From positions 8,164-72,163 of the forward strand of contig JAJEBT010000092.1 of assembly GCA_022822405.1 (NCBI GenBank): a DNA stretch of 64,000 nt. The letters run 5' to 3'. The translations under genes were made by a program, and so were the position numbers. Source of the DNA: Alphaproteobacteria bacterium. Lineage in GTDB: Bacteria; Pseudomonadota; Alphaproteobacteria; MPNO01; UBA830. The notes beneath the pieces are model-generated. The model was not told where the DNA came from and did no database searches. It worked only from the letters and a program-made list of their open reading frames with translations. This document shows positions 49,437 to 64,000 of this stretch, piece by piece. The first letter of the stretch is position 1. Every line of letters begins with the position of its first letter.

Positions 49437-49660
49437 GTTTTCCGGCCCCTTTCTTCGGACGAGCATTCTAGTCTTGGGCTCCGCGGGCAGCAACGCCGTC
49501 TCCGGTCGTGCTGGTCCCGATTACGGTGCTGGCAGGTTCGATTCGAACGGGAACAAGCTCCAACGTGCTTTGGTCGGTGCAATAAACGTCCCGAACATGC
49601 GGCATATGATGACGGGTGTCCGGCGGCATATTTTCTGCGGCCTGGATGGTGCTTCGGGCC

Positions 49661-50404
49661 TCAGGCGATAGCCAGGGCAGCGGCGCTGGCAACAAGGAGG
49701 ACGGTGATGAGCCATCTGAAGATGCTTTCCGGCACCGCACGGCCAAGCAGGTATCCGGTCAGTGTTCCCGCGAGCGCCGGAAAAAGCAGTGCTGCACACA
49801 TCGGCGCCGCGCGCTCCGACACGCCGGACATCCCCGCCTGCATGGCCAGGGCGACCGGGTAGGCGAAGAGAAACGTTACAAGCGTCGTTGCTCGGATCGT
49901 TTCCTTGCCGTGCCGGAGGGCGGTAGCGTAGGCGGCAACCGGAGGGCCGGGCATCGCGAGGGTGGCCGTCAGCGCTCCGCTCAGTGCGCCGGTCGCGAGC
50001 CGGCGTACGTCGTTGTCGCGCCGAAAGAGCGGATGACGCTCGAGAAAGCCGGTGGAAATGGCCGCCATGGCCAGCACTGCCGCAGCTGCCCCCCATTTCA
50101 GATTCTGCAACGACACATGTGAATACGTCACCGCGCCGGCGATCGCGCCCAGGCATATGCCAAGAGACAGGGGTTTCAGTAGTGACCAGTCGACTCTTGG
50201 CAGGGTGCTCGGCGAGAGCGCCAGCGCGATCGCGAAGCTCAGGACGATCGTTACCTGAATGGCGGCGGAACTGTCCATGAAGACGAGCAGCGCCGGACCT
50301 GCGATCAGGCCGAAGCCGAGTCCCGTCACGGCCTGCAGAAGCGCTGCCGAGAAGACGATGGCAACAAGAAGCACGGAGACGTCGGGCAAGTCGATCGCCG
50401 GCAT
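49661..50404 (-). CDS. TauE/SafE family sulfite / organosulfonate exporter
   Basis: A polytopic membrane protein with the family N-terminal LLQAVTGLGFGLIAGPAL and an internal repeat (LSGALTATLAMPGPP). Confidence 0.85.
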   Translation of the reverse strand: MPAIDLPDVSVLLVAIVFSAALLQAVTGLGFGLIAGPALLVFMDSSAAIQVTIVLSFAIALALSPSTLPRVDWSLLKPLSLGICLGAIAGAVTYSHVSLQNLKWGAAAAVLAMAAISTGFLERHPLFRRDNDVRRLATGALSGALTATLAMPGPPVAAYATALRHGKETIRATTLVTFLFAYPVALAMQAGMSGVSERAAPMCAALLFPALAGTLTGYLLGRAVPESIFRWLITVLLVASAAALAIA

Positions 50405-50502
50405 CGGGCTACTCTTCCACTCCGCTTACGCCAGCCGGCCGCTGGTACGTACTGAGCCGGACGGGATGCCGTTCTCCGAAAACCGGTCGCCGCAATCCCG
50501 GT

Positions 50503-51927: not shown

Positions 51928-51936
51928 CCAACTCCT

Positions 51937-53265
51937 TCAGTTTCTCTTCCGCGGCTCGACTCCGTCGTGCCAGTCGCGGAAGTGGTTCTTATGGGTCTCC
52001 AGATAGGCGCCCGGTTTCATGTGGGCGTCGTAGAAATCGAGATCGAGGTGGTGAGCCTGGATCATCAGCGTCATCTGGATCGCGTCGACCGTCGCGGGAA
52101 ACTTTCCGAACGTATCGAGGATATAACCGCAGATGTCCTTGACGCACTGCACACCCTCGGGCGATGCCTGCATCGTGGCTGCGTCGAATTCCGCGTTCGG
52201 CGCCGTGTGCGGCTTGAGCATGCCCCGCGCCTCCCAGTCATCCATGCTCATCGTTGCGCCCTCGATAGCGGCCTCGACGGCCGAATCCATGTCGGGATAG
52301 TAGGGCGGGCAGAACGCCTCGAAGACGCCGTCGCGACCGACCGGGGCGGGAAACGGGTCGGAGGCCGACTGCACGAAACGAAAACCTAGGCCGCGGCAGG
52401 TCGGCGTCCCGCCCAGCACCACGAGCGAGGAAAAGCCGCCATAGACCCAGCCTCCAAGTCCCGCCGCCTGCATTGCGAGCGCCATCAGCTGTCCCATGAA
52501 CGCGCCTTCGGCGAGCATGCCGTCCGAGAGCATTTTCTCAAGCCGCGACAACGGCATCACCTTGCGTTTCGAAAGGAAGCCGTTGTCCACCCATTTCTGG
52601 TTGCCGCAGGGACGCATGCCGTTGCGGTCGTCGACTATGTAGTAGCCGCCCTCTCGCGCGTAGCGGCCGGCCTTCGAATCGCAGAGGTTGAGGATCAGCT
52701 TGATCATGTCCTTGGTCACGTCGATGACCGGCATGAACAGCGTCGTTCCCTGCTTGTTGGTTACCCACTGGTTGTGCGGCCAGACACCGGGCTCGACACC
52801 CGGAAGGTCCATGCGGCCGTCCTCAAGCTTCTCGACGCAGGTTTCGTAGAAGCCAAGGATTTTGTCGCGGTCGCTGCGGTGTTCGTATTCGCGCATCTTC
52901 GTCATCGCCACCTGATCGGAACGGATGACATAGACACCGTTGTCGTCGGTGAAGAAGAGGCGGGCGCGGTGAGAGCCCATGGCCGACGGGTAGGGCTTGC
53001 CGATCGTCTTGACCATTCCGCCCGGCAGCTCGGTCTCCGCCAATATCGGACCGGTGGTCGCCGTTGCAGCGGCCACGAGCATCGCCGTCTCGAGGCTGTC
53101 AAGCCCCACCGGCTCCTTGTCGGAGCGATGCTGGAACGGGCCGCTCGACATTTCCATGCCGAGGCCGAAGCGCCGGGACCGCCGGCCCATGATCGCGTCG
53201 AACAGCGGATAGTCCCACATCGCCTCGGCATGCGGCGGCAGGCCGCCAGGTTTGCGCTCAACCAT
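51937..53265 (-). CDS. Hypothetical protein with nitroreductase-superfamily-like signatures (about 442 aa)
   Basis: RRSRRFG lies near the N-terminus and QLMALAMQAAGLGGWVYGGFS about 230 residues later. Codon bias is like neighbouring genes. ATG 53265 overlaps the stop of the 80-aa ORF (ATGGTTGA). I recognise no named family. Confidence 0.6.
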   Translation of the reverse strand: MVERKPGGLPPHAEAMWDYPLFDAIMGRRSRRFGLGMEMSSGPFQHRSDKEPVGLDSLETAMLVAAATATTGPILAETELPGGMVKTIGKPYPSAMGSHRARLFFTDDNGVYVIRSDQVAMTKMREYEHRSDRDKILGFYETCVEKLEDGRMDLPGVEPGVWPHNQWVTNKQGTTLFMPVIDVTKDMIKLILNLCDSKAGRYAREGGYYIVDDRNGMRPCGNQKWVDNGFLSKRKVMPLSRLEKMLSDGMLAEGAFMGQLMALAMQAAGLGGWVYGGFSSLVVLGGTPTCRGLGFRFVQSASDPFPAPVGRDGVFEAFCPPYYPDMDSAVEAAIEGATMSMDDWEARGMLKPHTAPNAEFDAATMQASPEGVQCVKDICGYILDTFGKFPATVDAIQMTLMIQAHHLDLDFYDAHMKPGAYLETHKNHFRDWHDGVEPRKRN

Positions 53266-53500
53266 CGGACCCGCCCCGCCGGCGTCCACCGAGCAATGCG
53301 TAGGGCAGGAGTTTCAGGGCATGAATCCAGAAGGACGGGCTGCAGGCGGTCAGTCGCAGGAGCGCCAGCATGTCATCACGATCCATCAGTGTTTCGGCCT
53401 CCCAGACGCCCATCTTTCCAGTCAGGACGACATCGGTTCCCGCGATCCTGAGATCGTCGATATGGAACTCGAACTCGCCGGCGGCTGACGCGATCTTCAT
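53258..53500 (-). CDS. Small hypothetical protein (80 aa)
   Basis: A strong SD (GGGGAGA) lies 4-5 nt before ATG 53500. The ORF fills the gap between the SnoaL-like gene and the 442-aa gene and is translationally coupled to the latter. Confidence 0.45.
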   Translation of the reverse strand: MKIASAAGEFEFHIDDLRIAGTDVVLTGKMGVWEAETLMDRDDMLALLRLTACSPSFWIHALKLLPYALLGGRRRGGSDG

Positions 53501-53522
53501 CCCTGTCTCCCCATCTGCGGTC

Positions 53523-53954
53523 TCATGGAATCATCTTCCAGTACGCGTCCTTGCGTGCGATCAAGCCGTCGCGGATCTTGTAGAGATCCATCCCTCTCGA
53601 TTTCCGCCATTTCCCGTCGGGCCCCATGTAGGAGACGCGGTAGGTCTGGATCACCGTGCGGCCGCGGAAGCGCCAGACGGAACGGCTGAATTTCGGGCCG
53701 TTCGGCATCGCGAACCGGCGCTCCATGGCGGCGATGGCGTTTTCCCGGCCATAGACGATCTCGCCGTTCGGGAGCCGCCATTCGAAGGAGGGCAGGAGGC
53801 ACTCGGCCATCAACTTCATGTCCTGGTTGAGAAAGGCCTCCTCGAACCGGGCAAACAGTTTCCGGTGAGCGAGTTCGGGAATCGCATCGACCGGCGTCGG
53901 ATCCTGGCGGATTTCCTCGATCTGCTGGCCCGATGTGTTTCTGACGATCTTCAT
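53523..53954 (-). CDS. SnoaL-like / NTF2-fold protein
   Basis: The size (143 aa) and pattern F.EAF...D...M...L...F.W..P.G....G......A ... D.Y.I.DG.I are typical of SnoaL-like polyketide-cyclase-fold proteins. Confidence 0.7.
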   Translation of the reverse strand: MKIVRNTSGQQIEEIRQDPTPVDAIPELAHRKLFARFEEAFLNQDMKLMAECLLPSFEWRLPNGEIVYGRENAIAAMERRFAMPNGPKFSRSVWRFRGRTVIQTYRVSYMGPDGKWRKSRGMDLYKIRDGLIARKDAYWKMIP

Positions 53955-54102
53955 CTTGGCCTCGCGAGACAGCGGAAGGGATCAACAGCGCCGCGTCCAC
54001 GCGAGCCGGGCGAAAGCGGCGCGAAGGCCGGGGCGGCCTCCTTTCCGGAGCGCCTGCCTGGCTTCGAGCGTAGTGTCACGGCGCTGTTCCCCCTCTTTCC
54101 GT

Positions 54103-55407
54103 TCACCGTCCGAGGGTCGGCAGGACGGTGACGATCTCGGGCACCGCGACCACGAGCGCAATGAGCGCAAGCAGTGCGGCGCAGAACGGCAGAACGCCCA
54201 TGAACACCTGGGCGAGCGGGATGTCGGCGGCGAGGCCGCGGATCACGAAGACATTGATGCCCATTGGCGGCGTTATCAGCGCGAGCTCGACGGCAATGAC
54301 AACGATGATGCCGAACCAGACCGCGTCGAGACCCATGGAGGAGACGATGGGGAAGAAGATGGGTATCGAAAGGATGATCATCGCCATCGTGTCGAGGAAG
54401 GCGCCGAGAAGAATGTAGATGCCGATGATCAACACCACCGTCATCAGGGGCGAGAGATCGAGGCCGACGATCCAGCCGCCGAGCAGAGCCGGCGTGCCGC
54501 TGAGCGACAGGAAGCCCGAAAACAGGATGGCGCCGATCAGGATCAGGAAGATCATGGACGTCGTCTGAACCGTGTCCATCAGGCACTCGAGGATTTCGGC
54601 AATGCCGAGCCGGCGCATCGCGGCGCCGATCGCCAGCGCCCCGACGGCGCCAATGCCCGCAGCTTCGGTGGGGGTGAATATCCCGGCATAGATTCCGCCG
54701 ATCACGAGAACGAAGAGCGCCAGCGTGGGCCAGATTTTGCGCAGAATGGCGGGATCGGAGACGGCAGCGGCTTCGCTGGACAATTGCGGAGCGCTCGACG
54801 GATCGATCCGGACGATCGCCAGAACCGCGATCATGAAGAACAGCGTGAGAAGGATTCCCGGTATCACGCCGGCGATGAACAGGTCGCCGATGCTGGTCTC
54901 GGTGAGGAGGCCGTAGATCAGCATGATCACGCTGGGTGGAATAAGGATGCCGATGGTCCCGCCGGCAGCTATCGCCCCGGTGGCAAGCCTGTCACCGTAT
55001 CCGAAACGGCGCATTTCGGGCAACGCCACGCGGCCCATCGTTGCCGCCGTGGCGAGTGAGGACCCGCACACCGCGCCGAAGGCGGCGCAGGCCGCTATGC
55101 TGGCCTGGGCAAGGCCCCCGCGGCTGCGCCGGAGCCAGACATTGAAGGCCGCGTAGAGATCGGAACTGATCCCGGACCTTGCGGCAAAGTCCCCCATCAG
55201 CACGAAAAGGGGGATGACGGCGAGATCGAAGCTCTGGGCGGATTCAAAGACCGATATTCCGGCAAGCGAGAGCGCGGCGTCGGGCCCGACGATCATGGCG
55301 GTGCCGAACATCGCCGCCCCGGACATTGCGAGCCCGAGATGCGCGCCGAGAAACAATGCACCGAACAGGAGTGCGAAAACGAGCGGCACCAGAACGCCGG
55401 TTTCCAT
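54103..55407 (-). CDS. dctM: TRAP transporter large permease
   Basis: A 434-aa polytopic protein with the typical DctM start and FVLMGDFAARSGISSDLY. Confidence 0.9.
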   Translation of the reverse strand: METGVLVPLVFALLFGALFLGAHLGLAMSGAAMFGTAMIVGPDAALSLAGISVFESAQSFDLAVIPLFVLMGDFAARSGISSDLYAAFNVWLRRSRGGLAQASIAACAAFGAVCGSSLATAATMGRVALPEMRRFGYGDRLATGAIAAGGTIGILIPPSVIMLIYGLLTETSIGDLFIAGVIPGILLTLFFMIAVLAIVRIDPSSAPQLSSEAAAVSDPAILRKIWPTLALFVLVIGGIYAGIFTPTEAAGIGAVGALAIGAAMRRLGIAEILECLMDTVQTTSMIFLILIGAILFSGFLSLSGTPALLGGWIVGLDLSPLMTVVLIIGIYILLGAFLDTMAMIILSIPIFFPIVSSMGLDAVWFGIIVVIAVELALITPPMGINVFVIRGLAADIPLAQVFMGVLPFCAALLALIALVVAVPEIVTVLPTLGR

Positions 55408-55413
55408 GCTTCT

Positions 55414-55914
55414 TCAGTCCCCGGACCGGTTCCGCACCGCCGACAGGTCCCCGATCAGGCGCACGAGCAGGACGATGAGGAACATGCCTATGCCGACGCA
55501 CATGACGATTGCGGTGGGCCAGAACGGCAATTCCCAGATCTGGGTGTATTCCTGTTCCTCGACGATCTCGCCGGTCTTGATCAGAAGCCTCCATGCGAGG
55601 AAACCGGTGACGACCACTGCGAGCAGGGAATTGACGATCTCCGACAGGCGGCGCGCCGGGCGCGGAAACAGCGTCTGGAAGGTTTCGACGACGATGTGCC
55701 GGCGATGGATTTCCGTGAGTGCGAGACCGCAGAACACGAGGATGCCCATCATCAGTTCGACGCTTTCGACGGTGCCGACGAGTGCGCGCCCGAAGAACGT
55801 CCTGCCTATGACGTCGAGGAACGTCATGACCATGATGGCGGCAAGCGCAAGGGAGGCGAAGCGGGCGAGCCACAGGGCGGCCCGCCCGATCGCCCCGCTC
55901 ATCGCCGGGAACAT
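55414..55914 (-). CDS. dctQ: TRAP transporter small permease
   Basis: 166 aa with four TM helices. FLDVIGRTFFGRAL is a DctQ-type motif. It lies between dctP and dctM. Confidence 0.8.
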   Translation of the reverse strand: MFPAMSGAIGRAALWLARFASLALAAIMVMTFLDVIGRTFFGRALVGTVESVELMMGILVFCGLALTEIHRRHIVVETFQTLFPRPARRLSEIVNSLLAVVVTGFLAWRLLIKTGEIVEEQEYTQIWELPFWPTAIVMCVGIGMFLIVLLVRLIGDLSAVRNRSGD

Positions 55915-55929
55915 GGCTGCCGCCGGGTA

Positions 55930-56943
55930 TCAGAGACCGGCGACGATCTTGCGGTAGTCCGCCAGCAGCGCCTTGCCGTCCAGGCCCGCCTTGTCGGCTT
56001 TTTCGATCCAGGCATCCGTTATCGGCTGCACCATCTGCTTCAGCTTGGCGGTTTCCGCATCGCTGAGCACCGTGATCGTGTTGCCGTTGGCCTTGGCGGC
56101 GTCGCGTCCCGATTTTTCGGCAGCATCCCATTTCCTGGAGATGAAGCGCGATCCCCATTCTCCACTGACCTTGTCGACTGCGGCTTTCTGGCCGGCGGAG
56201 AGCTTTGCCCATGTCTTGGGGCTCATCGTGAGAAAGAAGATGCCTGCATAGGTGCCGCCGGGAATCTTCAGGTGATGCGACGTCACGCCGGCAAGGCGGA
56301 AGCCCTTGACCGACTCCCACGGGAACTGCGACGCGTCGAGCGTGCCCTTGGCCAGCGCCTCGTTGGTGGCTCCTGGCGGCATGAAGACCGGGACGGCGCC
56401 GACAATCTTGGCGATCTTTACTCCGTTGCCGCCGGTCCGGATTTTCATGTTTTTGAAGTCCGCGAGCTTGGTCAGCGGCTTGGCGCTGTGATAGAGATGC
56501 GGTGCATGTGCGAACAGGGCAAGAAGCTTGGTGTCGGCCGTGTCCTTCGCCATGAAGCCGTGCTTCTTGTACCACTGCCAGGCGGCCACTCCGGCAGCCT
56601 CCGCGGTCGGCGCCGCGAACGGCGTCTCGACTGCCATCAGCTTCCAGAACCGCTTCGGATGGTATGCCGCAACACTCCAGGCGATGTCGACGATCCCTTT
56701 CTTGGCGAGATCGTATTGCCCGTCAGGCTTGGCGAGCGGAGCGGTCATCACTTCCACCTTGATTTCACCGCCCGAGGCTTTCTCGAGTTCGCTGGCCCAT
56801 GCGCCGAGCGTGGCCGACATGTGGTGAACCGGAGGCAGCCAGTTGGCCAGCCTCAATTTGGTGGCCGCCCGGCCGTCCTCTGCGGTCAGCAGCATCGCGG
56901 CAGCCATGAGGCCGGCGACAAGCATGCAGCATCTCTTCATCAA
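55930..56943 (-). CDS. dctP: TRAP transporter substrate-binding protein (DctP family)
   Basis: A signal peptide is present, then KLRLANWLPPVHH, a DctP-type fold and the expected length. Confidence 0.9.
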   Translation of the reverse strand: MMKRCCMLVAGLMAAAMLLTAEDGRAATKLRLANWLPPVHHMSATLGAWASELEKASGGEIKVEVMTAPLAKPDGQYDLAKKGIVDIAWSVAAYHPKRFWKLMAVETPFAAPTAEAAGVAAWQWYKKHGFMAKDTADTKLLALFAHAPHLYHSAKPLTKLADFKNMKIRTGGNGVKIAKIVGAVPVFMPPGATNEALAKGTLDASQFPWESVKGFRLAGVTSHHLKIPGGTYAGIFFLTMSPKTWAKLSAGQKAAVDKVSGEWGSRFISRKWDAAEKSGRDAAKANGNTITVLSDAETAKLKQMVQPITDAWIEKADKAGLDGKALLADYRKIVAGL

Positions 56944-57202
56944 TCTCTCCCTGGTTCTCGCGGCTGCAGTCCGGAACTCTCGCCGTCACCGGCGGGCCGG
57001 TATTGTGTCTTTGCAGCCGCAGGGTTGTCCGTACAGATTTCATGCTAGGTGAGAACGGTGCCAGCTGTCAATTTTTCCGGATCCGGGTTGTTGGCTGGCC
57101 GGTAATCCACAACCCCCTGTGGACAAGTATGCTCGGATGCCGACGGCTCCGTCCGGCCGAGCGAAATGTCGACAACGGCGGCCGGCGGACGATGCGCTCC
57201 GG

Positions 57203-57751
57203 TCAGAGCAGCAGAAAGGCGCCGCCAAACAGGCCAAGTGGCCAGTGGCCTGCCATGAAATGCCGGAGCTTGATGCGGAAGGGGTGGGTATCGGCTGTCC
57301 CGGCAAGGACCGCCAGCGAGGCCTGGTGAACTGCTTCCCCGGCAGCACCGGCAGCGCTTGCGGCAAGGCCCGGATCGGAGACAGCAGCGTGCGTCAACGA
57401 GGCGGTCGCATCGGTGAGCGCCCGGTCGCCGGCGGCGAGGAGGATCGCGGACAACCGCCGTGCGACGGAGCGTTCGGCAAGGACGGCGGCGATGCGCGCC
57501 GTCAGGGCCCGCTGCTCTGCCTGTTCGGCCGTCCACCAGGATCGGTTCCAGGCCTCGCGCCGAAGAGCGGCGCCCGCGGCCTTCCACTCCTCGACGGTTT
57601 CCACACGGCCGGCCGGTTGTCCGAGACCCTCGAGATAGAGCCCGATTTCCCGGATCGTGGCCGGAGGGGCGCCGGAGCCTGTGGCAGAGAACCAGCTGGC
57701 GCCGCCGAGATCCTCCTCGAAACGGGCAAGTATCAGGTCGGGACGGGACAT
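57203..57751 (-). CDS. Hypothetical protein (182 aa, Ala-rich, hydrophobic C-terminus)
   Basis: The start lies 12 nt after the stop of the diiron protein gene and in the same orientation. I recognise no motif. Confidence 0.5.
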   Translation of the reverse strand: MSRPDLILARFEEDLGGASWFSATGSGAPPATIREIGLYLEGLGQPAGRVETVEEWKAAGAALRREAWNRSWWTAEQAEQRALTARIAAVLAERSVARRLSAILLAAGDRALTDATASLTHAAVSDPGLAASAAGAAGEAVHQASLAVLAGTADTHPFRIKLRHFMAGHWPLGLFGGAFLLL

Positions 57752-57763
57752 GCGCGGGCGGTG

Positions 57764-58477
57764 TTAGCCGGCGATGGCGGGAAGCCGCAGCCCGAGCCGA
57801 TGCTCGACGAGTTCGCGCACGCGGCTCATGTAGTCGTCGCGCATCTCGTCATTGGTCCGCATCTTGATGCTCCACTTGCGGTAGATCTGGTTGTTGACGG
57901 ATCCGGATCGACCGAAAAAGGCAGGCATCGCGGGAAACATCCGGTCGAGGGCTTCCTGGACGGCTTGGCGGCCATCCTCGGTCTCGATGAGGTCCGAGCA
58001 GAAATCCTCGCCGAACTGCGAGTGGAAGCGCTCTTCGGGCATGGTCATGCGCGCCAGGTTTCGCAGCGGGTGGAACGAGCAGTGAAGCAGATCCTCGACC
58101 TGCAGGATTTCGGCAAGATCGCCGATCGCCTTGATGACGCAGAACTCGGGCCAGCTGTCGAGATCGTATTCGAAGATGCTTAGCGGGCGCTTGGCGCTGG
58201 TCTGAGGGATCATGTCCTCTTCCGCGATCCCGATCTCCCGGCCGAGCTCGAAGAACCGCACATGGTGGCCGTATTCCTCCATTGCAATTCGGCATGTGAG
58301 CCATTTGGCGTACGGGGTCGGCGCAAGGGCGATTGCGGGCTCGTCGAAGACCTGGGATCCATAGAGCTCGTTGATGGCGTGGCTGAGCACAATCTTCCGG
58401 ATGGCCGTCTGGTACTCCTCGGGCTGCTCGCGGAATTCCTCCGCGGTTCTGACTTCCGGCTTGCTTTCCTCGTTCAT
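57764..58477 (-). CDS. Ferritin-like diiron protein of the phenylacetate-CoA oxygenase PaaA/PaaC family, stand-alone
   Basis: Diiron ligand set: AINE, MEEYGHH (ExxH), GDLAE, PEERFH (ExxH). The length is 237 aa. Confidence 0.7.
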   Translation of the reverse strand: MNEESKPEVRTAEEFREQPEEYQTAIRKIVLSHAINELYGSQVFDEPAIALAPTPYAKWLTCRIAMEEYGHHVRFFELGREIGIAEEDMIPQTSAKRPLSIFEYDLDSWPEFCVIKAIGDLAEILQVEDLLHCSFHPLRNLARMTMPEERFHSQFGEDFCSDLIETEDGRQAVQEALDRMFPAMPAFFGRSGSVNNQIYRKWSIKMRTNDEMRDDYMSRVRELVEHRLGLRLPAIAG

Positions 58478-58486
58478 GGACTCTTC

Positions 58487-59428
58487 CTATACGTCCGGTT
58501 CGGTATTGAACCGTTCGAGATCGGTGGCAAGGTCGGCAAAATGACCGCGGAACCGCGCATTGACGATCTCGGTCAGGCCATCATGCGACCAGCGGCTGTC
58601 CGCGCATACCGTCGTGTGCTTGGCGTCCGCCTGCGAAAACAGCATGAGTTCCCGTCCGCGCACACCGAAGAGCTGGCCGGTGACGTCGCGGGCGTCCTCC
58701 GAACAGAGCCAACCCACGAAATCCGCGACATGGTTGGCGGGAACCTTCATCGCGCGCGCCTTGTAGCGTTCCTGGGCCTCATTGGCCGGCACGATCATTT
58801 CGGTGACGCGGGTGCGGGCGAAGGGAGCCACGGCGTTCGACGTGACGCCGGACCGCGCCATGTCGAGGGCGGCGATGCGCGTGAGCGACAGCAGCCCGCC
58901 CTTGGCGGCGGCATAGGGCGCTTGCCCGTAATTGCCCACGAATCCCGCGGTCGAGACGATATTGACGATCCTGCCCCAGTGACCCCCGCCGCGGCCGGCT
59001 CGCGCCTGTTCGCGCATGACCGGAGTGGCGGCGGCAAGCAGGTGATAGGGGCCGGAGAGATTGTTGCGGATCACGGCCTCCCAGTCGGCTCCACTGCCCT
59101 TGAAGATGAAGGCGTCGCGAAGAATCGCTGCGTTGTTGACGACAATGTCGAGGCCGCCGAACCGCTCCATGGCGAGCTCGACGACGGCCGCGGCTGCGGC
59201 CGGAACGGACATGTCTTCTGCATGGGCTACGGCGCGCTCCCCGAGACCCGCCGCAAACGTCGGTGCGACGGCCGGATCAGCATCGTTGCCGGAGATGTTG
59301 ACGCCGCTGTCGGCGATCACCACCGCCGCGCCGTCCGAGACCAGTCTCGTGCTGATCGCTGCGCCGATGCCGCGGGCGCCGCCGGTGACGACGGCAACCC
59401 GGCCTTCGAGCCGCGGGCCAGAGTTCAT
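58487..59428 (-). CDS. SDR family oxidoreductase with extended C-terminal region (multifunctional-enzyme-2 dehydrogenase-domain-like)
   Basis: TGGARGIG, NNAA and YAAAKGG (YxxxK) are present. A 313-aa protein with the GQLFGVRG tail typical of the MFE-2-like SDR subgroup. Confidence 0.85.
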   Translation of the reverse strand: MNSGPRLEGRVAVVTGGARGIGAAISTRLVSDGAAVVIADSGVNISGNDADPAVAPTFAAGLGERAVAHAEDMSVPAAAAAVVELAMERFGGLDIVVNNAAILRDAFIFKGSGADWEAVIRNNLSGPYHLLAAATPVMREQARAGRGGGHWGRIVNIVSTAGFVGNYGQAPYAAAKGGLLSLTRIAALDMARSGVTSNAVAPFARTRVTEMIVPANEAQERYKARAMKVPANHVADFVGWLCSEDARDVTGQLFGVRGRELMLFSQADAKHTTVCADSRWSHDGLTEIVNARFRGHFADLATDLERFNTEPDV

Positions 59429-59537
59429 GGCGAGTTATCCCGCAAGAGGCACTTTCCGATGCCCGCGAGCATCGGTCTTACTCCGCAATATCGGGCCATG
59501 GCAATACGCCCGACCGGCGCGTCGGTTCGGGAAGGCC

Positions 59538-60401
59538 TCAAGGCGCCGCGCGTTCGGGCCTTGTGCCCTTGCAGGTCGTGCGCCGAAGCAAGCGCCGTTC
59601 GTTGGCGCCGAAATCGGTCCGCGCGTGATTGGTGCAGCGGTTGTCCCACATCACGAGATCGCCCGGCGTCCACACGTGGCGGTAGACGTTTTCGGCACGT
59701 TCAGAGTGATCAAACAGGCGAAAGAGGAGGTCCCGTCCCCGGTCCTCGCCGAGCCCGATGAGGCGCCGCGTCAGCATGCGGCTGACATAAAGCACGGTCC
59801 TCGACGATTCCTCGTGGCGGATGAGCGCCGGGTGGCGGGCGGAACCGCTGTGACCGGTGACCCGCAGCGCGATCTTCATCTCCTCGGTCACGTCCGGTCC
59901 GGCGTAGAAGCCGTGTTCGGCATCGATGTCCGCCAGCAGTTCCTTCAGATCGTCGGGAAGCGTTTCGTATGCCGCGTACATGTTGGCGAACAGCGTGTCG
60001 CCGCCAGTCTTCGGGACCTCGATGGCGTAGAGGAAAGTATAGCGATACGGAACCGCCTCGTAGGAGCCGTCGGTGTGAAAGAACATCTCGCCGTCGGGGA
60101 TGGAGCCGATGACCTCGCCGTTCTCGCGGATGTTGGAGACCAGCATCACGGACTTGTGAAGTTGATCGTCCGCCTTTGTGCCGCGGGAATGTACGCCCCT
60201 GTCGGGCAGGTCGCCGAAACGCAGCGTGAATTCAACCTGCTCCTCGTCGGTCAGATCCTGATCCGGGAACACGAGGACAAGATGTTCCAGCATCGCGGAG
60301 TGAATGATCCCGAAAGCGTCGTCGCCGAGCGGCTTCGAGAGGTCGATGCCTGTGATCGAGGCGCCAAGCGCATCTGAAATAGGGGTTACGGCAATCGTCA
60401 T
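59538..60401 (-). CDS. TauD/TfdA family Fe(II)/2-oxoglutarate dioxygenase
   Basis: FHTDGSY (HxD), WDNRCTNHAR (distal His/Arg) and N-terminal ITGIDLS are present. ATG 60401 was chosen. The longer ORF call adds an Arg/Pro-rich extension. Confidence 0.9.
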   Translation of the reverse strand: MTIAVTPISDALGASITGIDLSKPLGDDAFGIIHSAMLEHLVLVFPDQDLTDEEQVEFTLRFGDLPDRGVHSRGTKADDQLHKSVMLVSNIRENGEVIGSIPDGEMFFHTDGSYEAVPYRYTFLYAIEVPKTGGDTLFANMYAAYETLPDDLKELLADIDAEHGFYAGPDVTEEMKIALRVTGHSGSARHPALIRHEESSRTVLYVSRMLTRRLIGLGEDRGRDLLFRLFDHSERAENVYRHVWTPGDLVMWDNRCTNHARTDFGANERRLLRRTTCKGTRPERAAP

Positions 60402-60664
60402 GTCGCGATCCGGTGGATGTGGATGGCAGGGTAGGGGATGCGGCCGCCGCCGTCCAGTTTTCGGATGCTGGCCGGCGCGGGCTGCACGGGTCGAAGACAG
60501 CGGCGCGATGTGGCGACCGTGGAGAGAACGGGACGTTTCCGTTATAAGAGTCTGATTCAGCGCGACGATGCGATCAGGTGGCGGATCGAGCGCATCATCG
60601 CGGAGCAGGGTCGGCATTGTTCGGCGGAGCGGCTGGAAGCGCGCCGCCGGATATGTCCGCGTGA

Positions 60665-62353
60665 ATGGATCGGAGAGAGCCGGTGGGCGTGGCCCGGCGA
60701 CCGTTTCCAGGAGGCGCCGGACCGTTGGGAGAGGATGACGCTTTGGGCGATTCGACTGCGAGAAAGCTCAAGTACTGGGGCTGGGGGTACGAGGGCGAAG
60801 GCCTCGACGTGGCCGAGACGAGGTCCCTGCTGACCACCTTCGCCGAGGGTTTCGGTATCGTGCCGAGCGACGACGGCAGAATGCCAGCGCTTGAGGAAAT
60901 CGAGCTCCCGGCGCCGCGTCTGGCATGGCCGGCGGCTTTGGCCGGTATCTGCACGAACGACAGGTATGAGCGCGTATTGCACGCGTTTGGCCAGTCGCAG
61001 CCCGATTCCATTCGTATCTGCATGGGCGATTTTACCCGTGCGCCCGATGTGGTCGCGTATCCGGAAAACGAGGCGGATATTGCCGCACTCTATGACTGGT
61101 GCGGGGATGCCGGGGCAGCCCTAGTTCCTTATGGCGGCGGCTCGTCGGTTGTGGGCGGCGTGACCGGCGATGTTGGTAACGGCTTCAACGGAACCGTGAC
61201 CGTCGATCTGGGGCGGATGAACAAAGTGCTTGAAATCGACGACGTGAGCCGCGCGGCGCGCATCCAGGGCGGGGCGCGCGGCCCGGAACTGGAAGCCCAG
61301 CTGAAGCCAAGCGGCCTGACCCTGCGCCATTTTCCGCAGAGTTTCGAGCATTCGACGCTGGGAGGCTGGATCGCGACGCGGTCCGGCGGCCATTTCGCCA
61401 CTCTCTACACCCATATCGACGATCTCGTCGAAAGCGTGACCATGGTGGCGCCCTCGGGAAAAATGACGTCGCGCCGGCTGCCCGGTTCCGGCGCTGGTCC
61501 CAGTCCCGACCGGTTCATGATCGGATCCGAGGGAGCGATGGGGATCATCACGGAGAGCTGGGTGCGGCTGCAGGGCAGGCCGGTCTTCAAGGCGACGGCC
61601 GGGTTTCGTTTCGCGGATTTCCTCTCTGCCGCCGCAGCCGTGAGGGCGGTCTCGCAGGCCGGGCTGTTTCCCGCCAACGTACGCATCGTCGATGGGGTCG
61701 AATTGCAGGTGAACGGGGCCGGCGACGGATCGTTCTCTCTCATGGTGGTGTCGTTCGAGAGTTCCGACCATCCGGTTGACGCATGGATGGCGCGTGCCGA
61801 GCAATGTTGCCTCGATCATGGTGGCGTCATCGACGTCGACTGGCGGGACAATCCTCGGGCCAACCTGGAGGGTGCGGTCGGCGCCTGGCGCACAGCCTTC
61901 ATCCGCATGCCGTACTGCCGCGAGGAACTTACGCCGCGCGGCATCATTTCCGACACCTTCGAGAGCGCGATCACATGGAACCGCTTCGAGGAGTTCTACC
62001 ATGCCATTCGCGAGGCAACGGGCGCAGCCATCCGAAAGGCGACAGGACGGGAGGGCGCGGTGTCGTGCCGGTTCAGCCATGCCTATCCGGACGGACCGGC
62101 GCCGTATTTCGCGTTCCACGGGCAGGGGCGAAAGGACGGTCTTCTCGAACAGTGGAAGGAGATCAAGAATGCCGCCTCCGACGCGGTCATCAGCGAGGGT
62201 GGCACCATCACTCATCACCATGCTGTGGGGCGTGATCACCAGAAATGGTATGAACGGCAACGTCCTGAAATTTTTGGAAAAGTACTGGCTGAGGCCAAGG
62301 GTTGTCTGGACCCGAAGGGAATTCTCAACCCCGGCGTGATCGTGAGCAGCTAA
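60665..62353 (+). CDS. FAD-linked oxidase resembling alkyldihydroxyacetonephosphate synthase (AGPS-like)
   Basis: N-terminal LKYWGWGYEGEG resembles the AGPS KWNGWGY motif. The FAD-PCMH block is LVPYGGGSSVVGG. The C-terminus is HHHAVGRDH...LDPKGILNPG. Confidence 0.8.
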   Translation: MDRREPVGVARRPFPGGAGPLGEDDALGDSTARKLKYWGWGYEGEGLDVAETRSLLTTFAEGFGIVPSDDGRMPALEEIELPAPRLAWPAALAGICTNDRYERVLHAFGQSQPDSIRICMGDFTRAPDVVAYPENEADIAALYDWCGDAGAALVPYGGGSSVVGGVTGDVGNGFNGTVTVDLGRMNKVLEIDDVSRAARIQGGARGPELEAQLKPSGLTLRHFPQSFEHSTLGGWIATRSGGHFATLYTHIDDLVESVTMVAPSGKMTSRRLPGSGAGPSPDRFMIGSEGAMGIITESWVRLQGRPVFKATAGFRFADFLSAAAAVRAVSQAGLFPANVRIVDGVELQVNGAGDGSFSLMVVSFESSDHPVDAWMARAEQCCLDHGGVIDVDWRDNPRANLEGAVGAWRTAFIRMPYCREELTPRGIISDTFESAITWNRFEEFYHAIREATGAAIRKATGREGAVSCRFSHAYPDGPAPYFAFHGQGRKDGLLEQWKEIKNAASDAVISEGGTITHHHAVGRDHQKWYERQRPEIFGKVLAEAKGCLDPKGILNPGVIVSS

Positions 62354-62561
62354 GAACCGGTCACATGTAGCTTCACCCCGGTCTCAGGGTGCCGAAAGTT
62401 CTAGGTTCATCGCATGATCATGCGGTGTCGCATGGGGATTCCCTCGGCGATATTGCCAGCCCTTCCCCGTGCTGCTCGGACAGTTTCCGACGTGCTATCT
62501 CGGGAAGTATCAAAGTGGAGATCCCGCCCCTGAATTCGCTAGGCAGGTAGTGTGCCAGCGC

Positions 62562-63032
62562 CTACGAGATCTCCGGCGCCATGAGCGTGGCTTCGCCCTC
62601 CAGCACGACCTTGTCGTCCACGGAGCAGATGGTGTGGAAGACGGCGAATTTCCGCTCCGGAAGAAGTTCGGTTACCTCGACCCGGGCGGTCACGGTGTCG
62701 CCGATATAGACCGGCGCACGGAACTTGAGCAATTGATTGACATAGGGCCAGCCTGGGCCGGGAAGGGTGCCTGCGAACGTGGCCGATATCAGTCCCGCGG
62801 TCAGAATGCCGTGGGTGATCCGTTTCTCAAATCTCGTGGTGCTGGCGAAATCGTCGTCGAGATGGAGCGGATTGCAGTCACCGGATGCGGTCGCGAACGC
62901 GCGTACGTCTTCATCGGTCAGCGTCTTGGTGAAGGTGTCCGTCATTCCGACCTCAAGGTCGCTGAAGCCGCGGAGTGTTGGCATGTTCGGGTTTCCCATT
63001 GCTTTGTGGAGGGGGCTGGTTGAGTGGGTCAT
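62562..63032 (-). CDS. MaoC-family (R)-specific enoyl-CoA hydratase (PhaJ-like)
   Basis: The hot-dog fold motif is ASGDCNPLHLDDDFA...RITHGIL. ATG 63032 forms an ATGA overlap with the phaR stop. Confidence 0.85.
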   Translation of the reverse strand: MTHSTSPLHKAMGNPNMPTLRGFSDLEVGMTDTFTKTLTDEDVRAFATASGDCNPLHLDDDFASTTRFEKRITHGILTAGLISATFAGTLPGPGWPYVNQLLKFRAPVYIGDTVTARVEVTELLPERKFAVFHTICSVDDKVVLEGEATLMAPEIS

Positions 63033-63640
63033 TTTGGCCCGGTGAGGGTGTCCAGACGCTGTTGCATCTCGGCCAGCTGCCTTTTCAGGTCTTCTATCTC
63101 CTCGTCCCTGGACGGCGACTGCCTATCCGCGGTGGGCGGCGGGCTGTTGCCATCCCGCCCGCGGCTTGCGGCCGGGGGTGTGAACATGTTCATTGATCTC
63201 TGGAAGATCTCGATGTTCCGACGGCCGATTTCAGCAAACTGCTCGACCGCTCCGCCGTCGCCGTCGCCGCCGAGCATGCGCTGCATCTGCTGGACGACCT
63301 GCTGCTGATTCGCGGTAAATGCGTCGACACTCTGCTCAAGATAGGCGCGGAACTGCGGGCCGAAGCCCGCGTCGTAGAGTTGCAACATCTGCCGGAGATA
63401 GTTGAGCGGCAGCATGTTGTGCCCCCGGTTTTCCTCTTCGGAAACGATCTGGGCGAGGATGGAGCAGGTGATGTCGCGACCCGATGTCGCGTCCTGCACC
63501 ACGAAGCTGATTCCCTGCTTGACCATGTCGTGGAGGTCTTCGAGGGTGACGAAGCTGGCAGTATCGGTGTTGTAGAGGCGCCGGTTGGCATATTTTCGGA
63601 TGACCGTCGCCTTTGCGCTCCCGGTTTCCTCGCTTGCCAA
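63029..63640 (-). CDS. phaR: Polyhydroxyalkanoate synthesis repressor PhaR
   Basis: IRKYANRRLYNTDTASFVTLEDL...GRDITCSILAQIV.EEE is the PhaR N-terminal DNA-binding signature. There is no in-frame ATG at the expected position. TTG 63640 has a GGAG SD 8 nt upstream and gives about 203 aa. Confidence 0.85.
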   Translation of the reverse strand: MASEETGSAKATVIRKYANRRLYNTDTASFVTLEDLHDMVKQGISFVVQDATSGRDITCSILAQIVSEEENRGHNMLPLNYLRQMLQLYDAGFGPQFRAYLEQSVDAFTANQQQVVQQMQRMLGGDGDGGAVEQFAEIGRRNIEIFQRSMNMFTPPAASRGRDGNSPPPTADRQSPSRDEEIEDLKRQLAEMQQRLDTLTGPK

Positions 63641-63726
63641 TTGAACTGCTCCATCTGTTATGGGAACCGTTGCCGGCGGGTCGCCCAAGGTTAATCCGCC
63701 CGGTTTTCGGTGTTGCAAAAAGATTA

Positions 63727-63844
63727 TGCAACGCAATGCATTCGATAGCAACTCCCTAAAATTTAGCAGAAAAATTTTTTGCATCGCAAAATATTCGGGT
63801 TGACAGGGAAGCCAGCGGCGCCTAGATATGTTTTTGCAACGCAA
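63727..63844. promoter_or_regulatory. Three copies of TGCA(A/T)CGCAA in the phaR-phasin intergenic region; candidate PhaR operators
   Basis: Copies lie at 63727-63736, 63780-63789 and 63835-63844, spaced 53 and 55 bp. The region is AT-rich. Confidence 0.5.
63800..63828 (+). promoter_or_regulatory. Sigma70-type promoter candidate for the phasin gene
   Basis: TTGACA (63800-63805), 17 nt spacer, TAGATA (63823-63828). The third TGCAACGCAA repeat lies just downstream of the -10. Confidence 0.5.
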
Positions 63845-63912
63845 AAATTTCCGGTCTTGCGGTCGGCAACGCCGGCCGGAAGCCGGGGCGAACACACTGG
63901 ATGGAGCGAAAG

Positions 63913-64000
63913 ATGACCGAGAATTCAGGACAGGCCGCAACCGAAGCGGCCGAAAAGATGGCAGTCGCGGGCAAGGAGACCCTTGAGACGGTCATGCAGA
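63913..64000 (+). CDS. Phasin family protein, N-terminal part (3' end outside the window)
   Basis: SD GGAG lies 6 nt before ATG 63913. The sequence is MTENSGQAATEAAEKMAVAGKETLETVMQ. It is divergent from phaR, as in many alphaproteobacteria. Confidence 0.55.
   Translation, partial: MTENSGQAATEAAEKMAVAGKETLETVMQ

What the first reader, a model, noticed from the sequence alone, without database searches (positions are those of the whole stretch)
57203..60401. Operon of TauD-family dioxygenase, MFE-2-like SDR, stand-alone PaaA-like diiron protein and an unknown 182-aa protein
Four co-directional genes are separated by gaps of 109, 9 and 12 nt:
- a TauD/TfdA Fe(II)/2OG dioxygenase (HTD ... H);
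- a 313-aa SDR of the subgroup usually acting on CoA esters;
- a 237-aa ferritin-like protein that keeps the complete PaaA-type diiron ligand set (NE, MEEYGHH, GDLAE, PEERFH);
- a 182-aa Ala-rich protein with no motif I recognise.

In the characterised phenylacetyl-CoA epoxidase the diiron subunit works with PaaB, PaaC, PaaD and the reductase PaaE. None of these is visible anywhere in the 64 kb.

A diiron oxygenase subunit with intact ligands but no partners or reductase, coupled to a 2OG dioxygenase, suggests an undescribed oxygenation pathway. It may act on an acyl-CoA or a sulfonated/aminated acid. A MaoC hydratase, an ACAD and PHA genes lie nearby.
Basis: partly seen in the sequence, partly recalled or inferred. 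Interest (0 to 1): 0.62.

Follow-up and report, generated by a model that had tools for sequence, protein, structure and literature searches.

The report
Rearranged PaaA-like diiron oxygenase cluster
Three of the four genes are the core of a widespread, uncharacterised iron-dependent oxygenase system that in most related bacteria sits inside a pathway for breaking down aromatic acids via gentisate. Its "missing" reductase partner is encoded just outside the window.

Summary
The four minus-strand genes exist exactly as described, with gaps of 109, 9 and 12 nt and intact motifs.

- **Conserved unit.** In 80 species-level relatives, mostly Alphaproteobacteria, the order is a [2Fe-2S]-FNR reductase, then the MFE-2-type SDR, then the PaaA-like diiron protein, usually then a p182 homologue.
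  - SDR directly upstream: 74 of 75 loci. Reductase upstream of that: 69 of 70. p182 homologue somewhere in the locus: 64 of 80.
- **Gentisate context.** A bona fide gentisate 1,2-dioxygenase follows the PaaA-like gene on the same strand in 51 of 80 loci. MarR, CoA ligases, a 4HBT thioesterase and an FAH-family hydrolase are frequent neighbours.
- **TauD.** It is absent from all 80 loci and is specific to this lineage.
- **The reductase.** In the sponge-symbiont contig that extends the window, the orthologous reductase (57-63% identical to the cluster reductases) lies about 3.6 kb past the window end. A PHA gene block separates it from the cluster.
- **The two smaller proteins.** The 237-aa protein keeps all six PaaA iron ligands and is structurally closest to catalytic PaaA. 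p182 folds confidently (pLDDT 95) but matches no solved structure.

**Best reading.** This is a new variant of the PaaA/BoxB aryl-CoA oxygenases, probably producing gentisyl-CoA in relatives, and rearranged here. The substrate is unknown.

The parts
57764..58477 (-). PaaA-like diiron oxygenase subunit (237 aa), the probable catalytic component
   Evidence: Family scores: Pfam PF05138 94.6 bits; NCBIfam PaaA equivalog only 85.9 bits against a cutoff of 280.

Ligands: E37, E68, H71, D120, E149 and H152 are invariant in 54 homologues. They align to PaaA E42, E72, H75, D126, E155 and H158.

Structure: AF2 model with pLDDT 94.9. Foldseek ranks PaaA first (TM 0.85, rmsd 1.6 A), then SSO1313, PaaC and BoxB.
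58487..59428 (-). MFE-2/17beta-HSD4-type SDR (313 aa), probably an NAD-dependent (3R)-hydroxyacyl-CoA-type dehydrogenase
   Evidence: Pfam adh_short. Best solved relatives are 2et6 (MFE-2 (3R)-hydroxyacyl-CoA dehydrogenase, 1e-56), 3qlj, 7lg9, 3oml and 1gz6.

The TGGARGIG and YxxxK motifs and the Asp after beta-2 (VVIAD) are read from the sequence.

It lies directly upstream of the PaaA-like gene in 74 of 75 related loci.
57203..57751 (-). p182, a member of the conserved stand-alone 'p18x' family of unknown fold; probable accessory or catalytic partner of the oxygenase
   Evidence: No Pfam, NCBIfam or PDB sequence hit.

Homologues occur in 64 of 80 related loci, downstream of the PaaA-like or GDO gene.

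503 representatives at 50% identity were found, all stand-alone.

AF2 model: pLDDT 95.3, pTM 0.91. No Foldseek PDB hit at E <= 0.001. No profile relation to PaaA/PaaC.
59538..60401 (-). TauD/TfdA-family Fe(II)/2-oxoglutarate dioxygenase (287 aa); a lineage-specific neighbour, not part of the conserved system
   Evidence: Pfam TauD 211 bits, with no NCBIfam equivalog reached.

Nearest structures: RdpA/AAD-1 6d1o (4e-40), TfdA 5bke, TauD 1gqw.

Absent from all 80 related loci. Present next to the SDR only in the window contigs and the 91%-identical relative L091.
55930..56943 (-). TRAP transporter solute-binding protein DctP
   Evidence: Pfam DctP 108.7 bits. It lies 259 nt downstream of p182.

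It is only 30-33% identical to the DctP genes found beside the cluster in other lineages.
55414..55914 (-). TRAP small permease DctQ
   Evidence: Pfam DctQ 87 bits.
54103..55407 (-). TRAP large permease DctM
   Evidence: Pfam DctM 309 bits; TIGR00786 321.7 bits, above its cutoff.
57042..57071 (-). Sigma-70-like promoter match between p182 and dctP (TTGACA-18-TAGCAT); it suggests the TRAP genes may be a separate transcription unit
   Evidence: Consensus scan, 10 of 12 matches. Only 2 sites were found in 7.1 kb, against 1.0 expected by chance, so this is weak evidence.

Best explanation
**What it is.** SDR, PaaA-like protein and p182 are three of the four components of a conserved, so far uncharacterised multicomponent diiron oxygenase system. 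The fourth is a BenC/MmoC-type reductase with an N-terminal [2Fe-2S] domain followed by FAD and NAD(P)H domains.

**Inferred mechanism.**
1. The reductase passes electrons from NAD(P)H to the diiron centre of the PaaA-like subunit.
2. That subunit oxygenates the ring of an aromatic acyl-CoA bound in a PaaA-like pocket.
3. The MFE-2-type SDR then oxidises a beta-hydroxyl on the oxygenated, probably dearomatised, CoA ester.
4. p182 either assists assembly and electron transfer or processes the intermediate.

**In relatives.** The product is most likely gentisyl-CoA. A 4HBT thioesterase would release gentisate, which is then cleaved by the gentisate 1,2-dioxygenase encoded in the same operon.

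**In this organism.** It is a sponge-associated alphaproteobacterium and the cluster has been rearranged.
- The reductase gene now sits about 7 kb upstream of TauD, beyond a PHA gene block and outside the window.
- The gentisate dioxygenase, MarR, CoA ligase and thioesterase genes are not nearby.
- A TauD/TfdA-family dioxygenase gene and a TRAP transporter flank the triad.
- TauD is a lineage-specific neighbour and not a component of the system.

**Shown.** Gene content, synteny statistics, retained ligands, fold assignments, the orthologous reductase and purifying selection.

**Inferred.** CoA-ester substrate, aromatic substrate, gentisyl-CoA product, and the roles of the SDR and p182.
For: **Synteny in 80 species-representative loci**
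- SDR directly upstream of the PaaA-like gene: 74 of 75 loci.
- Reductase upstream of the SDR: 69 of 70 loci.
- p18x present: 64 of 80 loci.
- GDO on the same strand right after the PaaA-like gene: 51 of 80 loci.
- Among the 40 loci with at least 6 kb on both flanks: GDO 32, MarR 32, any CoA ligase 29, FAH hydrolase 17, 4HBT thioesterase 10, TauD 0.

**Identity of the neighbours**
- The bicupin is gentisate 1,2-dioxygenase: TIGR02272, 552.7 bits against a cutoff of 442.
- The reductase is BenC/MmoC-like.
- Reductase and SDR genes overlap by 1-4 nt in relatives, which suggests translational coupling.

**This organism's reductase**
- It is 57-63% identical to the cluster reductases.
- It lies on a contig that is 100% identical to the window over 16,237 nt.

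**The PaaA-like protein**
- All six iron ligands are invariant.
- Equivalents of the PaaA substrate-pocket residues K103 and F108 (K96 and F102 here) are conserved.
- Its nearest fold is catalytic PaaA.

**Other**
- The SDR's nearest relatives act on 3-hydroxyacyl-CoA.
- dN/dS is 0.09-0.35 for all genes.
Against: - No biochemical or genetic data exist for any member of the family.
- The substrate is not identified.
- An MFE-2-type SDR is not needed for a simple aromatic hydroxylation, so the chemistry is uncertain.
- In the window lineage the gentisate context is absent. No GDO, FAH, ligase or thioesterase homologue is in the 64 kb, only a distant monocupin. The local function may therefore differ.
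- About 20% of full-flank loci lack GDO.
- Some loci (L092, L093) lack p18x altogether.
- Sponge metatranscriptome contigs from the same study show no transcript of the triad. This is weak evidence, because contigs do not show absence.
Confidence: 0.6

Rival explanations
1. **The first reader's model.** A self-sufficient diiron oxygenase without a reductase works together with the TauD-family 2OG dioxygenase in a four-gene operon. The pathway would be new and act on an acyl-CoA or a sulfonated or aminated acid.
For: - Spacing is tight: 109, 9 and 12 nt.
- TauD-SDR linkage is kept in the 91%-identical relative L091.
- TauD is under strong purifying selection (dN/dS 0.086).
- An ALDH and a TauE-family exporter lie downstream on the same strand.
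- A 41%-identical TauD lies 5 kb from the cluster in L092 and L093.
Against: - TauD is absent from all 80 related loci.
- A dedicated reductase is present in 69 of 70 loci, and its orthologue is present in this organism.
- In L091 the TauD-SDR gap is 274 nt and the region upstream of TauD carries an IS66 transposase, which points to recent rearrangement.
Confidence: 0.1
2. **Aliphatic or alicyclic substrate.** The system would hydroxylate an aliphatic or alicyclic acyl-CoA at the beta-carbon, with the SDR then producing a 3-oxoacyl-CoA. The adjacent gentisate genes would belong to a separate pathway.
For: - The SDR belongs to the (3R)-hydroxyacyl-CoA dehydrogenase class.
- The window has MaoC and PHA genes nearby.
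- The AMP-forming ligases beside some clusters score best as fatty-acid ligases.
Against: - GDO is inserted between the PaaA-like and p18x genes, or directly follows the PaaA-like gene, on the same strand in 51 of 80 loci.
- MarR regulators of the aromatic-sensing type, an FAH hydrolase and a 4HBT thioesterase complete a gentisate route.
- No thiolase is conserved in the neighbourhood.
Confidence: 0.12
3. **Non-catalytic scaffold.** The 237-aa protein would be a PaaC-like structural or iron-storage ferritin-like protein, and the cluster would have no oxygenase function.
For: - It is the same length as PaaC (about 240 aa).
- It gives a weak PaaC HMM hit of 27 bits.
Against: - All six diiron ligands are invariant across the family.
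- PaaA outranks PaaC in sequence (86 against 27 bits).
- PaaA also outranks PaaC in structure (TM 0.85 at 27-28% identity against 0.78 at 15-16%).
- A dedicated reductase is always adjacent in relatives.
Confidence: 0.03
4. **Decaying remnant.** In this lineage the triad would have lost its function after losing its reductase and gentisate neighbours.
For: - The reductase, GDO, MarR and ligase genes are no longer adjacent.
- No transcript contigs of the triad were found in three sponge metatranscriptomes.
Against: - The ORFs are intact in two diverged species.
- dN/dS is 0.12-0.35 at dS of about 0.4-0.6.
- The reductase orthologue is intact over the 280 residues visible.
Confidence: 0.05

Closest known systems
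Phenylacetyl-CoA 1,2-epoxidase PaaABC(D)E (E. coli, Pseudomonas sp. Y2)
   Same: - The catalytic subunit has the same fold and the same six diiron ligands.
- The K103 and F108 pocket equivalents are kept.
- Electrons come from a [2Fe-2S] flavoprotein reductase.
- The substrate is presumably a CoA thioester.
   Different: - Only 25-28% identical, and it fails the PaaA equivalog cutoff (86 against 280 bits).
- It lacks the C-terminal ~70 residues of PaaA.
- There are no PaaB, PaaC or PaaD partners.
- The reductase has the opposite domain order: Fer2 is N-terminal (BenC/MmoC-like), whereas PaaE is class IA.
- The partners are instead an MFE-2-type SDR and p18x.
- The downstream pathway is gentisate ring cleavage, not PaaG/PaaZ oxepin hydrolysis.
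Benzoyl-CoA 2,3-epoxidase BoxAB
   Same: It is a diiron enzyme that oxygenates an aryl-CoA, works with a separate reductase and has no PaaB/PaaC-type subunits.
   Different: - BoxB is about 475 aa and only a distant structural match (TM 0.67-0.70; sequence E = 0.014).
- BoxA is a [4Fe-4S]/FAD protein.
- The next step there is the BoxC ring hydrolase, not an SDR plus gentisate dioxygenase.
CoA-dependent routes to gentisate: PhgABC (4-hydroxybenzoate NIH shift, Brevibacillus) and SdgABC (salicylyl-CoA 5-hydroxylase, Streptomyces)
   Same: Both follow the logic inferred for the relatives: acid to aryl-CoA, then ring hydroxylation to gentisyl-CoA, then thioesterase, then gentisate 1,2-dioxygenase (described in PMC7862547 and PMC13215587).
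   Different: To my recollection, which I could not verify here, the hydroxylases of those pathways are not PaaA-like diiron proteins. Neither pathway includes an SDR or a p18x protein.
SSO1313 (PDB 4MUD), a stand-alone PaaA-like protein from Sulfolobus solfataricus
   Same: It is a stand-alone PaaA/PaaC-family protein of similar length (about 235 aa) with a similar structure (TM 0.81).
   Different: It is only 21% identical, is a structural-genomics entry with no known function, and its genomic context was not examined.
Bacterial multicomponent monooxygenases (sMMO, toluene and phenol hydroxylases)
   Same: They combine a diiron carboxylate hydroxylase, an MmoC-type Fer2-FNR reductase and a small accessory protein.
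   Different: - The hydroxylase here is a single small subunit of the PaaA clade.
- p18x shows no structural match to MmoB or DmpM-type effectors in the PDB search.
- The SDR partner has no equivalent in those systems.

Membership tests
PaaA, catalytic subunit of phenylacetyl-CoA epoxidase | Ferritin-like fold with the six diiron ligands E42, E72, H75, D126, E155 and H158 | tested here: met
   E37, E68, H71, D120, E149 and H152 are aligned and invariant. Foldseek top hit is PaaA, TM 0.85.
PaaA, catalytic subunit of phenylacetyl-CoA epoxidase | Scores above the curated equivalog threshold (TIGR02156) | tested here: not met
   85.9 bits against a cutoff of 280.
PaaA, catalytic subunit of phenylacetyl-CoA epoxidase | Works with PaaC (structural), PaaB (bridging) and PaaD, encoded in the same operon | tested here: not met
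   There is no second PaaA/PaaC-family ORF in the window. None of the neighbour families found in six or more of the 80 loci that I annotated or could assign was PaaB-, PaaC- or PaaD-like; several of the rarer ones were left unannotated. PaaB and PaaD were not searched for directly by HMM.
PaaA, catalytic subunit of phenylacetyl-CoA epoxidase | Class IA reductase PaaE (FNR-like N-terminus, [2Fe-2S] C-terminus) | tested here: not met
   The associated reductase has Fer2 at the N-terminus. It scores best as BenC (211 bits) and MmoC (187 bits). PaaE scores 128 bits against a cutoff of 421.
PaaA, catalytic subunit of phenylacetyl-CoA epoxidase | Phenylacetyl-CoA as substrate and the 1,2-epoxide as product | not testable with these tools
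   This needs an enzyme assay.
PaaC, non-catalytic structural subunit | Ferritin-like fold lacking the full ligand set; pairs with PaaA | tested here: not met
   The full ligand set is present. The PaaC HMM gives 27 bits against a cutoff of 133. Structural identity is 15-16%.
BoxB, benzoyl-CoA epoxidase | Diiron protein of about 475 aa, paired with BoxA and BoxC | tested here: not met
   PDB 3per gives E = 0.014 over 150 residues. TM is 0.67-0.70 with rmsd about 5 A. No BoxA or BoxC homologue was seen among the neighbour families I annotated; BoxA and BoxC were not searched for by name.
TauD/TfdA Fe(II)/2-oxoglutarate dioxygenases (first gene) | Pfam TauD domain with the HxD...H facial triad | tested here: met
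   211 bits over the full length. HTD and the distal His are read from the sequence. No equivalog cutoff is reached, so specificity is unknown.
MFE-2/17beta-HSD4-type (3R)-hydroxyacyl-CoA dehydrogenase SDRs (second gene) | Classical SDR core plus the C-terminal extension shared with MFE-2 dehydrogenase domains | tested here: met
   Best PDB hits are 2et6, 3qlj, 7lg9, 4kzp, 3oml and 1gz6, with alignments running to residues 281-300. Best NCBIfam models are PRK07792 and PRK07791, both below their cutoffs. Substrate was not tested.
Known oxygenase accessory proteins (PaaB, PaaC, PaaD, MmoB/DmpM effectors) for p182 | Sequence or fold similarity to one of these | tested here: not met
   No Pfam or NCBIfam hit. 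No PDB sequence hit. No Foldseek PDB hit at E <= 0.001, despite a model with pLDDT 95. hhalign against the PaaA-like profile gives probability 0.2%.
Gentisate pathway gene cluster | Gentisate 1,2-dioxygenase and a maleylpyruvate- or fumarylpyruvate-processing enzyme encoded with the genes | tested here: not met
   Met in relatives: GDO is above the equivalog cutoff, on the same strand in 51 of 80 loci, with FAH in 17 of 40. Not met in the window: no GDO or FAH homologue, only a distant monocupin at 24376-25014.

The most novel reading that the evidence does not exclude
Reductase, PaaA-like protein, p18x and SDR would form a third type of aryl-CoA dearomatising oxygenase pathway that performs a redox-neutral para-dihydroxylation.

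1. The diiron subunit epoxidises benzoyl-CoA, or a close analogue.
2. p18x, a protein of a previously unseen fold, opens the epoxide by adding water at the para position.
3. The MFE-2-type SDR oxidises the ring beta-hydroxyl, which re-aromatises the ring to gentisyl-CoA.

This would give a genetic basis for CoA-dependent benzoate or hydroxybenzoate-to-gentisate routes in Proteobacteria.
Probability: 0.15. Interest if true: 0.78.

Novelty: new variant of a known kind. Interest (0 to 1): 0.55.

Why it matters
Only two diiron aryl-CoA oxygenase systems are understood: PaaABCE and BoxAB. Both lead to hydrolytic, non-oxygenolytic ring opening.

A third system would show a new way of combining CoA-thioester "hybrid" chemistry with a classical ring-cleavage pathway. 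It has a different partner set (BenC-type reductase, MFE-2-type SDR, a protein of unknown fold) and is wired to gentisate 1,2-dioxygenase in hundreds of alphaproteobacterial species from soil, freshwater, ocean and sponges.

It could account for CoA-dependent formation of gentisate in Gram-negative bacteria, whose genes are largely unknown (PMC3572157). It would also assign a function to a family now annotated only as "phenylacetic acid catabolic protein", and to the p18x family (about 500 clusters at 50% identity, all "hypothetical").

For genome scanning there is a practical lesson. The apparent lack of partners was partly an effect of the window edge and of a lineage-specific rearrangement.

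Tried and rejected
- **p182 as a PaaB, PaaC, PaaD or effector analogue.** Rejected. There is no sequence, profile or fold match.
- **A p18x fusion as Rosetta-stone evidence.** The single long hit, P0277 (320 aa, a PaaA-like C-terminus plus p18x), has an Arg-rich out-of-frame middle section. It is a frameshift artefact.
- **TauD as a conserved partner.** Rejected. It is in 0 of 80 loci. A 41%-identical TauD lies 5 kb away in L092 and L093 and looks coincidental.
- **The window TRAP transporter as the orthologue of TRAP systems beside other clusters.** Rejected. DctP is only 30-33% identical.
- **The downstream SnoaL, 80-aa, 442-aa, ALDH and TauE genes as part of the conserved system.** Rejected. 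Only distant ALDH paralogues (32-34% identical, in three loci) appear in other lineages.
- **Literature.** Searches for a characterised PaaA-like enzyme in gentisate, salicylyl-CoA or hydroxybenzoyl-CoA metabolism found nothing relevant. The PhgABC paper (Zhao 2018) is not held.
- **Expression.** Three sponge metatranscriptomes gave only scattered low-depth contigs (DctP, phasin, MaoC, ALDH region) and none for the triad. This is uninformative about absence.
- **RNA elements.** The Rfam and tRNA scans of the window were empty.
- **Terminators.** The terminator scan was at background level.

Full report
**1. Observation**

The region holds four co-directional ORFs on the minus strand:
- a TauD-family protein, 59538-60401, 287 aa;
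- an SDR, 58487-59428, 313 aa;
- a PaaA_PaaC-family protein, 57764-58477, 237 aa;
- a 182-aa protein, p182, 57203-57751.

The gaps are 109, 9 and 12 nt. Pfam and NCBIfam confirm the first three assignments and find nothing for p182.

After a 259-nt gap that contains one promoter-like match, a TRAP transporter follows on the same strand: dctP 55930-56943, dctQ 55414-55914 and dctM 54103-55407.

HMMs built from the family found no second PaaA/PaaC-type ORF and no cluster-type reductase in the 64 kb.

**2. The diiron protein**

It passes the Pfam PaaA_PaaC threshold (94.6 bits) but is far below the PaaA equivalog cutoff (85.9 against 280). The PaaC model gives only 27 bits.

In the alignment to E. 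coli and Klebsiella PaaA, E37, E68, H71, D120, E149 and H152 correspond to the published ligands Glu42, Glu72, His75, Asp126, Glu155 and His158 (PMC4498308). All six are invariant in 54 homologues.

Equivalents of the pocket residues Lys103 and Phe108 (K96 and F102) are kept. The "lysine bridge" Lys68 is not: it is I64 here, with an invariant R63 next to it.

The AlphaFold model (pLDDT 94.9) is closest to catalytic PaaA (TM 0.85, rmsd 1.6 A, 27-28% identity). SSO1313/4MUD follows at 0.81, then PaaC at 0.78 with 15-16% identity, then BoxB at 0.67-0.70.

It is therefore a probably catalytic member of a clade distinct from PaaA. It also lacks PaaA's C-terminal ~70 residues.

**3. Synteny**

A scan of one genome per GTDB species found 436 loci that encode relatives. 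Eighty were fetched, nearly all alphaproteobacterial MAGs. The protein database holds 2,133 clusters at 90% identity.

tblastn, ORF clustering and HMM searches on the 80 loci gave the following:

| Feature | Count |
|---|---|
| SDR directly upstream of the PaaA-like gene | 74 of 75 |
| Fer2-FAD_binding_6-NAD_binding_1 reductase upstream of the SDR | 69 of 70 |
| p182 homologue (p18x) in the locus | 64 of 80 |
| Bicupin on the same strand right after the PaaA-like gene | 51 of 80 |
| Bicupin elsewhere in the locus | 10 of 80 |
| TauD | 0 of 80 |

The bicupin is gentisate 1,2-dioxygenase by the curated equivalog (552.7 bits against a cutoff of 442).

Among the 40 loci with at least 6 kb on both flanks:
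- MarR occurs in 32;
- some CoA ligase in 29 (ADP-forming in 18, AMP-forming in 11, and a few PaaK-like);
- an FAH-family hydrolase in 17;
- a 4HBT thioesterase in 10;
- DctP in 7.

In the clade nearest the window (73-77% identity) the operon reads reductase, SDR, PaaA-like, p18x, sometimes followed by a 4HBT thioesterase (seen in L007). MarR and a convergent GDO come next.

Reductase and SDR genes overlap by 1-4 nt in relatives.

**4. The missing reductase**

The window's own contig was recovered from sponge metagenomes. Locus L081 is 100% identical to window 47764-64000 and extends 4,477 nt further.

At its far end, on the same strand as the cluster, is a 349-aa Fer2/FAD/NAD reductase gene at window-equivalent position 67,633 or beyond. 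The visible 280 residues are 57-63% identical to the cluster reductases of other species. That is the same range as those reductases show to the reference reductase of L062 (50-66% for most). I therefore take it to be the orthologue.

Between it and TauD lie DUF6489, phaC, a phaB-like SDR, phasin, phaR, MaoC and a divergent FAD-linked oxidase.

In a 91%-identical relative with a 5.25-Mb contig (L091):
- TauD, SDR, PaaA-like protein and p182 are kept, with a 274-nt TauD-SDR gap;
- an IS66 transposase and other mobile-element genes lie upstream of TauD;
- three small ORFs separate p182 from dctP.

The lineage has clearly rearranged this region. All genes remain under purifying selection, with dN/dS of 0.086 (TauD), 0.155 (SDR), 0.115 (PaaA-like) and 0.345 (p182).

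**5. p182**

The family is real and conserved. Conserved features include a WF...G motif near the N-terminus, an AAGAA helix segment and a C-terminal GRWPLG...F tail.

A profile search of 1.84 billion representatives found 503 members. All listed members are short (117-232 aa) apart from two, and none carries a second domain. The 271-aa one has no Pfam domain, and the 320-aa one, the only apparent fusion, is a frameshift artefact.

The AlphaFold model is very confident (pLDDT 95.3, pTM 0.91) and mostly helical with a small C-terminal hairpin. It has no significant match among PDB chains; the best is E = 0.23. It is unrelated to the PaaA/PaaC profile.

It is therefore not PaaB, PaaC, PaaD or an MmoB-type effector. 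Its role is open: assembly or electron-transfer partner, or an enzyme acting on the oxygenated intermediate.

**6. SDR and TauD**

The SDR's best solved relatives are MFE-2/17beta-HSD4-type (3R)-hydroxyacyl-CoA dehydrogenases and their mycobacterial cousins, and the similarity includes the C-terminal extension. The Asp after beta-strand 2 (VVIAD) suggests NAD dependence; this is read from the sequence.

TauD is about equally close to aryloxyalkanoate dioxygenases (RdpA/AAD-1, TfdA) and to taurine dioxygenase, so its specificity is unknown.

**7. Mechanism (inference)**

The conserved set comprises a CoA ligase, a reductase, a diiron PaaA-like protein, a beta-hydroxyacyl-CoA-type dehydrogenase, p18x, a thioesterase, gentisate dioxygenase and an FAH hydrolase.

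This set is best explained by activation of an aromatic acid to its CoA ester, ring oxygenation, and delivery of gentisyl-CoA and then gentisate to ring cleavage.

An SDR is unnecessary for a plain hydroxylation. One attractive possibility is therefore:
1. epoxidation of the ring;
2. water addition to the epoxide;
3. oxidation of the ring C2 hydroxyl, which is beta to the thioester, to re-aromatise the ring.

Direct hydroxylation of a hydroxybenzoyl-CoA, or an ipso attack with an NIH shift as in PhgABC (PMC7862547), remain alternatives. None of this has been tested.

In the window lineage the gentisate genes are not nearby, so the local substrate and the fate of the product are unknown. The neighbours there (TauD, the TRAP transporter, SnoaL-like, 80-aa and 442-aa proteins, ALDH, TauE) are specific to the lineage.

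**8. Known or new**

NCBIfam (June 2026) has no model for this clade or for p18x. Sources name the proteins "phenylacetic acid catabolic protein" or "hypothetical".

Full-text searches found no study linking a PaaA-like protein to gentisate or hydroxybenzoyl-CoA metabolism.

I rate it a new variant of a known kind (PaaA/BoxB-type aryl-CoA diiron oxygenases) and not a categorically new system.

**9. Verdict**

- What lies underneath is still a worthwhile lead: an uncharacterised four-component oxygenase, widespread in Alphaproteobacteria, with a partner of unknown fold.

Interest: 0.55.

Noticed in passing
window 49661-53954 (minus strand): A tightly spaced co-directional array follows the TRAP genes: a SnoaL/DUF4440-like protein (53523-53954), an 80-aa ORF, a ~442-aa protein (51937-53265), an aldehyde dehydrogenase (50503-51927) and a TauE/SafE-family permease (49661-50404). 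The ~442-aa protein has no Pfam, NCBIfam or PDB sequence match. The array is conserved in the 91%-identical relative L091 but absent from other lineages.
   Followed up: partly
window 23721-25014 (minus strand): Two tandem single-cupin proteins of 200 and 212 aa. The second (24376-25014, Cupin_2 58.7 bits) is 27-41% identical over 70-110 residues to one cupin domain of the gentisate 1,2-dioxygenases in related loci. They may form a split or monocupin ring-cleavage-type dioxygenase, 33 kb from the cluster.
   Followed up: partly
window 60665-62353 (plus strand): A 562-aa FAD-linked oxidase (FAD_binding_4 plus FAD-oxidase_C, GlcD-like but far below the equivalog cutoff) is transcribed divergently from TauD across a 263-nt spacer. 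It is also kept near TauD in L091, although mobile-element genes are inserted between them there.
   Followed up: no
window 62562-64000 and L081 1000-5916: A PHA gene block (MaoC hydratase, PhaR, phasin, a PhaB-like reductase, PhaC, DUF6489) lies between the cluster and its displaced reductase. The phasin gene crosses the window end and is the most abundant transcript fragment in one sponge metatranscriptome (depth about 35).
   Followed up: partly
L092/L093 8081-11329: A variant of the system has reductase, SDR, PaaA-like protein and then MarR, with no p18x gene anywhere within 10 kb. p18x is therefore not universally required, or it is encoded elsewhere. A 41%-identical TauD-family gene lies 5 kb downstream, next to GlcDEF-like genes.
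   Followed up: partly
L002 6350-9266: In this long-read MAG the reductase and p18x matches are fragmented: a partial reductase at 36% identity and p18x split into two pieces. These are either assembly frameshifts or pseudogenes.
   Followed up: no
L085 5166-6053, and 12 of the 80 loci (cluster c11): A Peptidase_C26/GATase (gamma-glutamyl hydrolase-like) gene recurs about 4.6 kb upstream of the cluster. L092 has a glutamine-synthetase-like gene and a VanA-type Rieske oxygenase upstream. This is reminiscent of gamma-glutamylation pathways for aromatic amines and may hint at the substrates.
   Followed up: no
window 1-64000: No tRNA genes and no Rfam family above gathering score were found in the whole window. 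The sequence recurs in sponge metagenomes from several studies, so the organism is probably a sponge-associated alphaproteobacterium.
   Followed up: yes
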